Shown here: positions 31,282-41,776 of the stretch, in pieces
Layout of the letters: the number at the start of each line of letters is the position of its first letter
How positions within the stretch are numbered: the stretch's first letter is position 1
Assembly: GCA_951406725.2 (NCBI GenBank)
Contig: OX597814.1
Span: forward strand, 40,672,001-40,736,000
Length of the DNA: 64,000 nt
Reading direction: 5' to 3'
Source of the DNA: Octopus vulgaris
Lineage: Eukaryota
The notes under the pieces: model-generated
Databases searched by the model: none
Seen by the model: the letters and a program-made list of their open reading frames with translations, nothing else
What the model was told of the DNA's origin: nothing
Made by a program: the position numbers and the translations under genes

Positions 31282-31366
<85 letters not shown>

Positions 31367-31647
31367 GGTCCCGGGTTGATTCGGGGTTAACCACAGTAAG
31401 TAAGGTACTCAATACATAGCAGAGTAAAATTAATTTATTATATAGAAGGAGCTTCTACAGGACTAGTACTGTTTCATTCAAGAGAAATCTTCAGGAAGCT
31501 ATTTAACAAGAATTGTATTAGCATTTTATACATTTAGGCAGGTTTAAAGGAGTGGTGGTGGGGGACTTTTTGGGGGTAGGCATAGCGCAAAATATCATAC
31601 TTGGGGGAGTGGTCAAGGAGTCAGTGGTAAGTTAGATGAAAGAATAG

Positions 31648-31689
<42 letters not shown>

Positions 31690-31863
31690 AAAAAATAAAA
31701 AAAATAAAAATAAAAATAAAAAAATAAAAAATATATGTATATATAAAAATATATATATAAAAAAAGGGGGGATAGAGTTATAGGTAAATAAGGAGATTCT
31801 CACTTATACCTATACACACATGTATACGTATCTACACACACATATATATACACATACATATAT

Positions 31864-31906
<43 letters not shown>

Positions 31907-32216
31907 CATATATACACACATACATACATATCTACATACACACATACATACACCCGCCCACATATACAAATTTATACACATGCACATGCCTATACCTGTC
32001 TACACATACACACACGTATATATGCATACACTCACTCCCATGCATGCACGCATACACACATGTATATATATATATATACCCACGACCACACATACATATA
32101 TACACAGAAAAATATATATTCATACGCACATACACTCATGCACACACAACACACCTAGTTCCCTATATACACATATTTACACCTATATATACATACACCC
32201 ACATACACCTATGTAC

Positions 32217-32247
<31 letters not shown>

Positions 32248-32789
32248 CACGCATACATATATATACATGTGTGCACATACATACATACACACACATACAT
32301 ACACATACACATACACATGTGTACCTATACATACCTACACATACACACATACATACATACAAATATATATATATATATATATATACAATCCAATACAGGC
32401 CCATTCCCTAATTTTAATTTTATTATCTTCATTTATTACTTTTGTTATCTTTGATCGCTAGGGCTAAGAATCCTGGCTATGGCTGCATGTCCATTTGTCT
32501 GTCTACTAGAAGGCAAGTACTCATTCCCGCACGCACACTCATTAGCACGTACATTCACCCATTCGTACACTCATACACATACACGTACGCACGCGTTATA
32601 TTCATACATACAAACATCTACATACGTTCACGTATATACACATACGTACTCGTACCTACAGATTCGTGTCTACACTTTAGGAGGCTAGTCTATACATATA
32701 CACCAATAAATATACATATATATATATATATACACACATATACATACACACACACACATATATATACTCCTACATACAGATACATACCT

Positions 32790-32860
<71 letters not shown>

Positions 32861-33344
32861 CACATACACACATACATATACACACACATACATACACATA
32901 TATATACATACACAAACATATATACACACATATATATACATACACACATACACACATACATACGTATACATACATACATACATCCATACATCCATACTTA
33001 CATGCATTTATACGCATACACACACCCATCTATATATATATATATATATATACATATATATACACACTCACACATACATATACAAATCTACGCACACACA
33101 TACATACACGTATACACATACACGCACATACACATATACATGCGTACCCATACACGTGCACACACGCACGCGCATCCATATATATACACACACACACATA
33201 TATATACACGTGTGCAAGCATACATACATACTCATACGCGCACACATACTTACATATACATATATGCACACACTTACACACATATATATACATACACATA
33301 TACATGCATACATACATATATGCATACATACACACACGCACTCA

Positions 33345-33400
<56 letters not shown>

Positions 33401-33677
33401 CACATACATACACATACACATACATACACATATATACACACACATATATATATATATATACACATATACACATACATATATACACATATACATACATATA
33501 CATACACACACACATACATATATACATATACACTGATACACATACCCATACATATATATTATATATATACACACACACACATATACACGTGCATATACTT
33601 ATATCACTACATACTCACATATATAAACATATATACATATACACACATACACATATACATGTACATACACATACGTA

Positions 33678-33737
<60 letters not shown>

Positions 33738-33884
33738 AAAAGCAATAAAGATTCAAGTTAATTTAAATGAATTTACTTGAATATGGTACCTAACTTAGAT
33801 GCACCAAAAAAAACTATACTGATTTAACAATACAGTAATGTGGGGTGATTATAAGCGAGAATGAAGCAACAAGAATGGATAGGT

Positions 33885-33975
33885 TTTTAGTACAATCGTT
33901 TCATACAAGGACAGGTTTTATTAAAAGTTGCAAAGATTACAGCATATAAACGTGTCCCGTACTCATCAGCTAAAA
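33885..33975 (-). ncRNA. Family B hammerhead ribozyme (inverted copy)
   Basis: Reverse complement of 39322-39412. Confidence 0.75.
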
Positions 33976-35506
33976 TACATGTGAGTTCTCTAGACATCCT
34001 AGTGGTTGAGGCTATACTCATGAAGTAATGTAGATAATTAAGTAACATAAACAGATTTCAAAAGTTCATTAAAGTTCTTTAAAGATGATGTACAGTCTTA
34101 TCACAGAATTTTAAAAAAGTCTTAATAGCATCACAGAGAAGGTGACCCAATCCATAGTGCACATATGAATTTCCAGAGATATGATGAGGGATTACATACT
34201 CACAGAAGGCAAATTTATCCATTGTTAATTACAACGAGGTGGGTTTCAATTCCTGCTTATTAGCATTACAGAGAGGGTGAATTAATCCTTTGTATAGATG
34301 CACAATTTCCAATGGTGTAGGTGTAAATTTCCAAGGAATTTCATATTCACAGGCGATAAATTTATCAATGGTTGAACACAATGAGGTAGGTATCAATTCT
34401 TGCTATATGATTAGGTATTTGCCACATTAATCACATTACTGCTATTTACAAGAGGCTGTAGCTATTTAACTTTTAAAGGCTGAAGGGCTTACTGGAGCTG
34501 TATAGAATAGAAAAGGGAGGGGCATAGAAGAAAAGAGAGAAAATAAAAGAAAGAAAATAAAATAAAAAAGAGGAGGGGGCAAAAAGGGGGGGAAGGGGGA
34601 CTCAAAGAGAAGAGAAAAGGAAAAAGAGAATAAGAAGAAGAAAAAGAAAAAAAGAGAAAAGAGAAAGAAAAAGAAAAGGAATAGGGAAGGAAGGGAAAAA
34701 AGAAAAAGAAAAAGAAGAAAAAAAGAAAAAAGAAGAAAGAAGAAAGAAAAAGATAAAAAGGGTTCTAGTTATACAGAAGAATTAGTAGACGACAAGTCTG
34801 GTTTTAGTTTACAGGCATCTAGGAATTAGAGGAGAATATTATTCTTTGACCAGTTAAAATAGCTAATTTATTGCTGTTGAAATCAGCTATGAATTTAAAG
34901 AGAATCTAAAGAGATAACACAGTTAGGGGTCTCGGGGTCAGATGCTAAAATCACCAGAAAATACATTAGGGAAAACTAGGTATAATCTTATCAAAAAGTC
35001 ATTAAAATTTACTTACTTATTTATTCATTTTATTGTCTTAAGGAGTTGCCGTTATTATTCATACATTGACGGACTACAGGTCAAATCTTAGGAGATCATT
35101 CAAAAGGTGTTAGGGGATTGTCTATCATAATGAAGATAATCATATTATCACCGAGGGAATAGTCTCATTTATTTAATTTTGAAATAGAACAATGGGTCTA
35201 TAGTAACTCATTTTAATTAATTAGAGTTATGCTAATTAAATTAGATTAAGTTAGGAACTAAAATTAAAAATTACAATTAAGATTTAAAATTAAGAATTTA
35301 AAAAATTTAAAAATTGTGAGTTTGAAATTAAATAAAGCCTCAATTAAGCGGCGAATAAGTGCTATTCATTTCCCTGTTCTCAAAAAACTGATGTAGATAT
35401 AGGAAAAAGATAACTGTAGTGTGAGAACTCTTAGTTATCTACTTAAAGCAGTGCTATACCAGTAGAAATCAGGTTATATCTATCTATCTAGTTACGAATA
35501 TTCTAA

Positions 35507-39321: not shown

Positions 39322-39412
39322 TTTTAGCTGATGAGTACGGGACACGTTTATATGCTGTAATCTTTGCAACTTTTAATAAAACCTGTCCTTGTATGAAACG
39401 ATTGTACTAAAA
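39322..39412 (+). ncRNA. Family B type I hammerhead ribozyme
   Basis: ttttag CTGATGA gtacgggaca...tgtccttgtat GAA ACGATTGT A ctaaaa; sense to the ORF, ~1.5 kb after its stop codon. Confidence 0.78.
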
Positions 39413-39442
39413 ACCTATCCATTCTTGTTGCTTCATTCTCGC

Positions 39443-39538
<96 letters not shown>

Positions 39539-39637
39539 GCATACGTATGTGTATGTACATGTATATGTGTATGTGTGTATATGTATATATGTTTATATAT
39601 GTGAGTATGTAGTGATATAAGTATATGCACGTGTATA

Positions 39638-39670
<33 letters not shown>

Positions 39671-39821
39671 GTATGGGTATGTGTATCAGTGTATATGTAT
39701 ATATGTATGTGTGTGTGTATGTATATGTATGTATATGTGTATATATGTATGTGTATATGTGTATATATACATGTATATATATGTGTATATATGTGTATGT
39801 ATGTGTATGTGTATGTATGTG

Positions 39822-39877
<56 letters not shown>

Positions 39878-40162
39878 TATATGAGTGCGTGTGTGTATGT
39901 ATGCATATATGTATGTATGCATGTATATGTGTATGTATATATATGTGTGTAAGTGTGTGCATATATGTATATGTAAGTATGTGTGCGCGTATGAGTATGT
40001 ATGTATGCTTGCACACGTGTATATATATGTGTGTGTGTGTATATATATGGATGCGCGTGCGTGTGTGCACGTGTATGGGTACGCATGTATATGTGTATGT
40101 GCGTGTATGTGTATACGTGTATGTATGTATGTGTGTGCGTAGATTTGTATATGTATGTGTGA

Positions 40163-40201
<39 letters not shown>

Positions 40202-40369
40202 TGGGTGTGTGTATGCGTATAAATGCATGTAAGTATGGATGTATGGATGTATGTATGTATGTATACGTATGTATGTGTGTATGTGTGTATGTATATATAT
40301 GTGTGTATATATGTTTGTGTATGTATATATATGTGTATGTATGTGTGTGTATATGTATGTGTGTATGTG

Positions 40370-40434
<65 letters not shown>

Positions 40435-40986
40435 ATATATATAGGTATGTATCTGTATGTAGGAGTATATATATGTGTGTGTGTGTATGTATATGTGTGT
40501 ATATATATATATATGTATATTTATTGGTGTATATGTATAGACTAGCCTCCTAAAGTGTAGACACGAATCTGTAGGTACGAGTACGTATGTGTATATACGT
40601 GAACGTATGTAGATGTTTGTATGTATGAATATAATGCGTGCGTACGTGTATGTGTATGAGTGTACGAATGGGTGAATGTACGTGCTAATGAGTGTGCGTG
40701 CGGGAATGAGTACTTGCCTTCTAGTAGACAGACAAATGGACATGCAGCCATAGCCAGGATTCTTAGCCCTAGCGATCAAAGATAACAAAAGTAATAAATG
40801 AAGATAATAAAATTAAAATTAGGGAATGGGCCTGTATTGGATTGTATATATATATATATATATATATATTTGTATGTATGTATGTGTGTATGTGTAGGTA
40901 TGTATAGGTACACATGTGTATGTGTATGTGTATGTATGTGTGTGTATGTATGTATGTGCACACATGTATATATATATGTATGCGTG

Positions 40987-41024
<38 letters not shown>

Positions 41025-41327
41025 GGTGTATGTGGGTGTATGTATATATAGGTGTAAATATGTGTATATAGGGAACTAGGTGTGTTGTGTGTGCATGAGT
41101 GTATGTGCGTATGAATATATATTTTTCTGTGTATATATGTATGTGTGGTCGTGGGTATATATATATATATACATGTGTGTATGCGTGCATGCATGGGAGT
41201 GAGTGTATGCATATATACGTGTGTGTATGTGTAGACAGGTATAGGCATGTGCATGTGTATAAATTTGTATATGTGGGCGGGTGTATGTATGTGTGTATGT
41301 AGATATGTATGTATGTGTGTATATATG

Positions 41328-41364
<37 letters not shown>

Positions 41365-41776
41365 ATATATGTATGTGTATATATATCTGTGTGTAGATAC
41401 GTATACATGTGTGTATAGGTATAAGTGAGAATCTCCTTATTTACCTATAACTCTATCCCCCCTTTTTTTTATATATATATTTTTATATATATATATATTT
41501 TTTATATATATTTTTTATTTTTTTATTTTTTTATTTTTTTATTTTTTTATTTTTTTATTTATCTATTCTTTCATCTAACTTACCACTGACTCCTTGACCA
41601 CTCCCCCAAGTATGATATTTTGCGCTATGCCTACCCCCAAAAAGTCCCCCACCACCACTCCTTTAAACCTGCCTAAATGTATAAAATGCTAATACAATTC
41701 TTGTTAAATAGCTTCCTGAAGATTTCTCTTGAATGAAACAGTACTAGTCCTGTAGAAGCTCCTTCTATATAATAAA

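What the first reader, a model, noticed from the sequence alone, without database searches (positions are those of the whole stretch)
31364..41775. Concentric 10.4-kb double palindrome of two ribozyme-bearing retroelements
Seen: family A arms (2.3 kb each) enclose family B arms (2.1 kb each) around a 1.4-kb unique RT spacer. Four HHRs all point outward and the arms are near-identical. Both A arms end at the same internal point, and each family has its tail only on the left. Inference: A folded back at a TA tract and B later inserted into that central tract. Alternatively B's enzyme mobilises A as a partner or read-through passenger. Transcription through the locus would give ~4.4 kb of dsRNA, a plausible ADAR or small-RNA substrate.
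Basis: partly seen in the sequence, partly recalled or inferred. Interest (0 to 1): 0.75.

Follow-up and report, generated by a model that had tools for sequence, protein, structure and literature searches.

The report
Two Penelope retrotransposon insertions, nested
This 10.4-kb double mirror-image is in the assembly as described and is made of two different jumping-gene families that each encode their own copying enzyme and each usually sit head to head in TA repeats, so it is most likely an ordinary case of one insertion landing in the middle of another rather than a partnership.

Summary
The structure is as described. The inner element (B) is a 5'-truncated copy of a 4.7-kb Penelope-like retrotransposon. 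The outer arms (A) are the last 2.3 kb of a second, 5.55-kb family with its own RT–GIY-YIG ORF, so A does not need B. Both proteins carry the motifs of the Hydra clade (Craig et al. 2021).

Head-to-head insertion in (TA)n is the majority state: 32 of 39 A and 26 of 37 B loci. Near-symmetric centres are common (6 of 32 A, 8 of 26 B). One tailed plus one tail-less arm occurred in 30 of 30 pairs picked on internal sequence. No A adjoined any of 62 other B loci, so the partner idea fails.

In B, each arm holds sequence the other lacks, so it is not a simple fold-back. Two RNA-templated copies, primed from the two target ends, are the likely route. B likely entered the TA tract at the centre of an earlier A pair. 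That order and the lack of a causal link are inferred. Ribozyme activity and dsRNA are untested. The scan has reported this insertion type before on other DNA.

The parts
31282..31363 (.). (TA)41 target tract left of the insertion, shared with an adjacent mini A insertion
31364..31433 (-). Family A tail (70 nt); in tandem copies it runs on into the next unit, 45 nt before the start of A's ORF
31434..33685 (-). Family A left arm: 3' part of the microsatellite-rich 3' UTR of a 5,551-bp Hydra-type element
31450..31500 (-). A hammerhead motif, type I (stem I 6 bp, CUGAAGA, short stem II, GAAA, stem III with palindromic loop, GUA triplet)
33686..33735 (.). TA tract between A left arm and B tail; corresponds to an internal TA tract of the A unit
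33736..33854 (-). Family B tail (114-119 nt); in tandem copies it runs on into the start of B's ORF
33855..35932 (-). Family B left (tailed) arm, B unit position 2,494 onward: endonuclease coding part plus 3' UTR
33885..33975 (-). B hammerhead motif, type I (stem I 6 bp, CUGAUGA, long stem II, GAAA, 2-bp stem III, GUA triplet)
35933..37367 (+). Unmirrored spacer: 5' part of the longer B arm (B unit position 1,066 onward), head-to-head junction at 35932/35933 with one extra base and no microhomology
   Evidence: the junction is unique among 40 scored of 394 candidates
35934..37793 (+). 5'-truncated B ORF: YRDD RT motif, thumb, Asn-rich linker, CxCx5C linker, GIY-YIG-type endonuclease
37368..39443 (+). 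Family B right (tail-less) arm, ending at the family-wide tail-less end 37 nt past the predicted cleavage site
39322..39412 (+). B hammerhead motif, right copy
39444..39533 (.). Interrupted TA tract between B right arm and A right arm
39534..41775 (+). Family A right (tail-less) arm, ending at the family-wide tail-less end about 20 nt past the predicted cleavage site
41710..41760 (+). A hammerhead motif, right copy
41785..41852 (.). TA target tract right of the insertion, followed by sequence that does not mirror the left flank

Best explanation
The locus is two head-to-head insertions of two separate Penelope-like families with Hydra-clade proteins, each family encoding its own RT-endonuclease, and family B likely inserted later into the TA tract at the centre of an existing, symmetric family A insertion. 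Shown: both families sit in (TA)n, mostly as an inverted pair with one tailed and one tail-less arm of independent length, and A's UTR carries many TA tracts. Inferred: the enzyme likely cuts both strands of a TA tract and primes one cDNA from each end on uncleaved RNA, one at the tail end and one at the upstream tail-less site; the two 5'-truncated copies are then joined head to head. At this locus both A copies would have ended at the same self-complementary TA tract (or the centre was later lost between the two equivalent tracts), leaving a long TA target that B used the same way.
For: B unit 4,713 bp with a 954-aa ORF from the first Met. A unit 5,551 bp with its own RT-EN ORF, 42% identical to B over 417 RT residues. 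Exact ribozyme-region matches genome-wide: A 1,893, B 899, reversed controls 0. Of the first 100 listed hits, 68 (A) and 74 (B) fall in outward-pointing pairs within 11 kb. Inverted pair at 32 of 39 A and 26 of 37 B tail-selected loci; centres within 20 nt of symmetry in 6 of 32 and 8 of 26. Tailed plus tail-less in 30 of 30 pairs from loci selected on internal sequence, with no second arm scored at the other 25 of 55 loci. The tail-less arm is longer by over 100 nt in 7 and the tailed arm in 8 of 17 B pairs, 2 being tandem or complex. Two other A arms of 22 start at the same TA tract. Other nests in TA tracts occur with other partners: a Neptune-type element in an A pair (L152) and a B pair inside an inverted pair of another repeat (L161). 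In vitro, a Poseidon PLE cleaves and extends both strands, starts at two sites that bound the tail and uses uncleaved RNA (PMC11167929).
Against: The order A-then-B is not shown: the arms differ by 1 substitution in 771 non-repetitive columns (A) and 0 in 1,834 (B), Fisher p = 0.30. A rough estimate from my counts expects about one B-in-A nest per genome but only about 0.001-0.01 exactly concentric ones for this family pair, so coincidence must lean on many families and many windows. Both other nested PLEs that I found lie within about 200 bp of the host centre (L152, L161), though the flank test that found L161 can only see near-central cases. Several symmetric junctions are perfect hairpins at self-complementary motifs, which also fits self-priming, the reading in PMC3846280. 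No spanning read was obtained.
Confidence: 0.8

Rival explanations
1. The concentric form is causal. B's enzyme used the centre of the A inverted pair preferentially: it either filled a gap whose two A cDNA ends both ended in TA, or cut the two equivalent TA tracts paired in an extruded hairpin and replaced A's original centre.
For: Exact concentricity is improbable for this family pair by my rough estimate. The two other nested PLEs found lie about 120 bp (L152) and about 170 bp (L161) from their host's centre. A and B arms are about equally young.
Against: Symmetric A centres and junctions at TA tracts occur without any insert. 0 of 68 other A loci held B.
Confidence: 0.12
2. B's enzyme mobilises A as a non-autonomous partner or read-through passenger, or A carried a pre-existing B palindrome from a source locus.
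For: On the right, B's 3' end is followed directly by TA and A in the same sense. PLE enzymes can act in trans on sequence framed by their own repeats (PMC3846280 passage).
Against: A encodes its own RT-EN. 0 of 62 other B loci have A adjoining. On contig C1 up to 113 Mb, 0 of 11 other B loci lie within 30 kb of an A ribozyme match. The B-tail/TA/A junction and the B central junction are unique among 40 scored candidates each. The two B-A joints differ (tail on the left, none on the right), so one chimeric template cannot give both.
Confidence: 0.03
3. Fold-back read or assembly artefact.
For: The arms are nearly identical, and no public contig spans the central junction.
Against: The flanks are not mirrored, the tails are one-sided, both right arms stop at family-specific ends, a 1.4-kb spacer is unique, and the A arms differ at a CpG. 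The same architecture holds at most loci of both families. Public-run contigs from two studies carry a different B head-to-head junction (29-nt loose end at 36077 matching 33939-33967). The public runs differ from this assembly's B at fixed sites, so their failure to span the junction says little.
Confidence: 0.05

Closest known systems
Hydra clade of C-terminal EN+ Penelope-like elements (Craig et al. 2021, PMC8557442), including Hydra-1_Obim, Hydra-1/2_Amil and Hydra-1/2_Ajap
   Same: RW[K/R], DKT, GLYRDD, CxCx5C linker, CxxC and CxH around the endonuclease end, no CX2-5CxxC, hammerhead near the 3' end, (TA)n targets; both proteins line up by eye with the paper's Hydra alignment.
   Different: Units are 4.7 and 5.55 kb against 'generally <3 kb'; A has a 3.3-kb microsatellite-rich 3' UTR; B has an Asn-rich linker (29% Asn over residues 481-810); neither is Hydra-1_Obim (protein and ribozyme differ).
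Canonical PLE insertion unit: partial tandem, adjacent inverted 5'-truncated copy, tail at one end (PMC8557442 Fig. 2 legend; Adineta vaga Penelope, PMC3846280)
   Same: Head-to-head inverted copy, one-sided tail, tandem units whose tail runs into the next ORF, short palindromes at some junctions, Asn-rich inserts in the ORF, secondary insertion of one PLE into another (Pen2a in Pen3).
   Different: Tails are 70 and 114-119 nt rather than 30-40; the arms are kilobases long; here the nested element is exactly central.
Poseidon element PAc of Anolis, in vitro (Frangieh et al. 2024, PMC11167929)
   Same: Two 3' ends that bound the tail, both downstream of the predicted ribozyme cut, AT-rich targets.
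   Different: A different clade; the in vitro work does not show how the inverted arm forms; nothing was assayed for A or B.
Non-LTR retrozymes (non-autonomous hammerhead elements derived from PLE repeats; bioRxiv 10.64898/2026.07.22.740005, abstract only)
   Same: The A arms at this locus are non-coding and carry a type I hammerhead motif.
   Different: A is the truncated end of an autonomous element, not a short non-coding tandem monomer.

Membership tests
EN+ Penelope-like elements | Single ORF with RT followed by a C-terminal GIY-YIG endonuclease | tested here: met
   B 954 aa; A ORF pieces in L094, L107, L108, L109. Identified by motifs and by eye against the paper's alignment; Pfam and PDB sequence searches with B gave no hit.
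EN+ Penelope-like elements | Partial tandems forming pLTRs; tail continuing into the next unit | tested here: met
   L091, L092, L093, L117, L160 (B); L094, L107, L109, L148 (A)
EN+ Penelope-like elements | Adjacent inverted 5'-truncated copy, tail at one end only | tested here: met
EN+ Penelope-like elements | Hammerhead motif in the terminal repeat | tested here: met
   Consensus core and stems present; no Rfam hit
EN+ Penelope-like elements | Ribozyme self-cleavage and enzyme activity | not testable with these tools
   No assay possible
Hydra clade | RWK motif present and DKG changed to DKT | tested here: met
   B RIRWK at 35 and DKT at 124; A RIRWR in L107/L109 and DKT
Hydra clade | Linker CxCx5C instead of CX2-5CxxC; no CCHH in the endonuclease; CxxC and CxH near its end | tested here: met
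   B CKCRIKSKC, CQLC, CVH; A CNCHDKTTC, CDLC, CMH; no CX2-5CxxC match in either; no cysteine pair between the GIY and YIG equivalents, read by eye
Hydra clade | Insertion into (TA)n | tested here: met
   All printed tail-less ends and nearly all tail ends are followed by TA tracts
Hydra clade | Generally short (<3 kb), a tendency rather than a rule | tested here: not met
   Units of 4,713 and 5,551 bp
Hydra clade | Placement within the clade on an RT tree | not tested
   Reference proteins were seen only as text in a supplement; no tree was built
Neptune/Nematis clades | CX2-5CxxC linker and CCHH motif | tested here: not met
   Absent from A and B; present by eye in the third element nested in L152
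Non-autonomous partner or retrozyme | No own coding capacity; association with a helper family | tested here: not met
   A has its own ORF; no A-B association

The most novel reading that the evidence does not exclude
Penelope endonucleases do not pick TA tracts at random. They home on the centre of existing inverted pairs (hairpin or cruciform TA, or an unjoined gap whose two ends finish in TA), so one family's insertion is completed or re-cut by another and concentric nests like this one are made by mechanism. Together with the strict one-tailed, one-tail-less rule, this would define an ordered, two-ended insertion reaction.
Probability: 0.12. Interest if true: 0.6.

Novelty: new member of a known kind. 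Interest (0 to 1): 0.27.

Why it matters
As a locus it matters little: it is one of several hundred inverted pairs of these two families, unusual only in being nested. As data it has some value. How PLEs form inverted structures is named as an open question in PMC8557442. These young families give a countable signature: always one tailed and one tail-less end, either arm the longer, both ends past the ribozyme cut. That argues for two RNA-templated copies and can be tested with the in vitro system of PMC11167929. Earlier reports of this scan reached the same idea on other DNA.

Tried and rejected
Rfam at gathering threshold: no hit. Pfam on the truncated and the full B ORF: no hit. PDB sequence search with B: no hit. 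MFE folding recovers the hammerhead shape for A but not for B, with no significant z-score.

Public runs: no holder is on record as RNA. No contig of four DNA-type runs spans the B central junction, but one run was read only to about 80% and all differ from this assembly's B at fixed sites, so this is uninformative. Contigs of three runs guessed to be RNA cover parts of B's ORF; their A>G and G>A differences are about equal and largely shared with a DNA-type run, so they show neither expression of this locus nor editing.

The ORF listing of the window showed transposon fragments and no host gene that I recognised; its output was cut and I did not scan it against Pfam.

Flank-inversion test: 6 of the 7 A hits were A's own arms split by a subfamily deletion, and the seventh (L038) was not followed up; 16 A and 3 B loci were skipped for short flanks. 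Of 60 non-focal B loci tested, 2 had inverted flanks: L161 is a real nest, and L155 is a B arm joined to a LINE fragment.

In one search the two 'tail-tail' calls are not terminal pairs: L142 is a tail-less end followed by a separate mini insertion, and L093 is an internal junction of a two-way tandem.

'The tail-less end is the ribozyme cut' was rejected: both ends lie 20-37 nt past the predicted site. 'B's insertion duplicated its flank to make the second A arm' was rejected: that arm stops at A's own family-wide end.

Three paper searches listed no paper on concentric PLE nests; the library is incomplete.
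Full report
Observation. The window lies at G000:C1:40,672,001-40,736,000 in a 2.8-Gb genome of 227 contigs. Self-BLAST shows one inverted match, 37368-41776 against 35932-31434, at 95.8%. The inner arms (B) are 2.08 kb with 1,435 nt between them; the outer arms (A) are 2.25 kb. B's arms differ only by homopolymer shifts. A's differ mainly in microsatellites, plus one CpG transition. Four type I hammerhead-consensus motifs point outward; Rfam does not score them. Tails are on the left only.

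What B is. A search with B's 3' end gave 1,645 candidates, 40 of them scored. Tandem copies define a 4,713-bp unit with a 954-aa ORF whose start follows the tail. The focal copy begins inside the RT at unit position 1,066; the inverted arm begins at 2,494. The junction has one extra base and no microhomology, and it was unique among 40 scored of 394 candidates.

What A is. In 20 of 22 other arms printed, the sequence upstream of the TA tract where the focal arms begin is more A; two stop at that tract; none has B (6 of the 30 fetched loci lacked the exact anchor and 2 were the focal arms). Tandem copies define a 5,551-bp unit with its own RT and endonuclease ORF followed by a 3.3-kb microsatellite-rich UTR with 24 TA tracts of five or more units. 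Several A copies have frameshifts; the longest open piece seen was 680 aa (L108). A and B are 42% identical over 417 RT residues. The focal A arms are therefore the truncated end of a second coding family.

Family placement. Both proteins show RW[K/R], DKT, YRDD, a CxCx5C linker, and CxxC and CxH near the end, and both lack CX2-5CxxC. These are the Hydra-clade features in section 11 of PMC8557442. The proteins resemble that paper's Hydra alignment by eye and differ from Hydra-1_Obim. I built no tree. The units are longer than the '<3 kb' given for the clade.

The palindromes are the family norm. Exact 34-35-nt ribozyme-region patterns match 1,893 (A) and 899 (B) places, with reversed controls at 0. 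Among the first 100 listed, adjacent hits within 11 kb form 34 outward, 3 inward and 2 same-strand pairs for A, and 37 outward, 0 inward and 2 same-strand pairs for B. In loci selected on the tail, 32 of 39 A and 26 of 37 B have a head-to-head inverted arm, and 6 of 32 and 8 of 26 are symmetric within 20 nt. These sets are the best-scoring copies, so they lean young. Several symmetric junctions sit on self-complementary motifs, and about five A junctions sit on TA tracts. The window itself holds three more A pairs. In loci selected on internal sequence, 30 of 30 scored pairs have one tailed and one tail-less arm; 25 of 55 loci gave no scored pair. The tail-less ends are fixed to within a few bases and lie 20-37 nt past the predicted ribozyme cut. 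Either arm can be the longer.

Mechanism. In the focal B pair the left arm has the tail and the right arm has 1.4 kb of extra 5' sequence, so neither arm can be a copy of the other. The simplest reading, inferred, is two cDNAs primed from the two ends of a cut TA tract on uncleaved RNA, at the two sites that bound the tail, and then joined. This agrees with the in vitro behaviour of a Poseidon element (PMC11167929). Self-priming, proposed in PMC3846280, may still shape some junctions. Both focal arms of each family share minority variants, so each pair came from one source.

No A-B partnership. No A adjoins any of 62 other B loci (37 and 25); in L101 and L161 an A copy lies about 4 kb away across other DNA. 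None of 68 other A loci holds B. On C1 up to 113 Mb, the nearest A match to the 11 other B loci is 30.8 kb away. The B-tail/TA/A junction is unique among 40 scored of 1,243 candidates. Nesting occurs with other partners: a Neptune-type element in a TA tract of an A pair (L152), a LINE in an A arm (L183), and B inside another repeat's inverted pair (L161).

What remains open. The order A-then-B rests on geometry; arm divergence does not separate them (1 of 771 against 0 of 1,834, p = 0.30). A rough estimate uses about 575 B loci, the window's TA density (116 tracts in 64 kb) and about 10 symmetric A pairs joined at a TA tract. It expects about one B-in-A nest genome-wide but far fewer than one concentric nest. 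With many TA-targeting families and a very large scan, one such case is not alarming. Still, the two other nested PLEs also lie near host centres, so targeting of centres is not excluded. An artefact is unlikely (unmirrored flanks, family-specific ends, and a different B head-to-head junction in public-run contigs of two studies), but no spanning read was seen. Transcription, dsRNA and editing are untested.

Papers seen: PMC11167929, parts 1-2 of 4 of the text; PMC3846280, 12 passages; PMC8557442, passages, section 11 and supplement hits; PMC4209133, part 1 of 4 (minimal hammerheads in PLE repeats, and pairs on opposite strands); bioRxiv 10.64898/2026.07.22.740005, abstract and outline only, supplements not seen. 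Earlier scan notes were read after my reading was formed.

Verdict: real as assembled; two new members of a known clade in a known insertion architecture, most likely nested by sequential insertion. Interest 0.27.

Noticed in passing
window 14071-17876: A second long family A head-to-head pair, joined at TA tracts, with the tail-less arm longer and no insert.
   Followed up: yes
window 3126-3324 and 31019-31281: Two mini A pairs made of little more than ribozyme and tail; the second has about 65 nt of filler at its centre and shares the (TA)41 tract tail to tail with the focal element.
   Followed up: partly
window 26372-30777 (-): An apparently intact two-ORF LINE: ORF1 with a Myb/SANT-like domain, ORF2 of 1,043 aa with AP endonuclease and RT. 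A near-identical 5'-truncated copy interrupts an A arm in L183.
   Followed up: partly
L152:3645-6670 (G000:C1:15675400-15684900): A Neptune-type PLE (DKG, YLDD, CX4CxxC, CCHH by eye) inserted in a TA tract about 120 bp from the centre of an A pair.
   Followed up: partly
L161:2147-9010 (G000:C14:23000-32900): A B pair nested about 170 bp from the centre of an inverted pair of another microsatellite-rich repeat, next to a pair of a further, decayed Hydra-like family; pieces of that family also lie at window 11215-12370.
   Followed up: partly
L155:1514-5200 (G000:C33): A tail-less B arm joined at its 5' end to an inverted LINE fragment instead of a tailed B arm.
   Followed up: partly
L091, B ORF residues 481-810: Asn-rich linker (29% Asn) between RT thumb and endonuclease, like the inserts reported for Adineta Penelope elements.
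   Followed up: partly
A unit 4678-4977 (e.g. L131, L134, L141): A common A subfamily lacks about 300 bp of the 3' UTR.
   Followed up: no
public runs X2 and X8, loose end at window 36077: Contigs of two studies join an antisense piece of B's ribozyme region to B's ORF: a head-to-head junction of another B copy. The runs are only guessed to be RNA.
   Followed up: partly
window 4035-4625, 7262-7789, 48418-51651, 52746-55959: Further decayed retroelement ORF fragments, some PLE-like and some LINE-like by eye.
   Followed up: no
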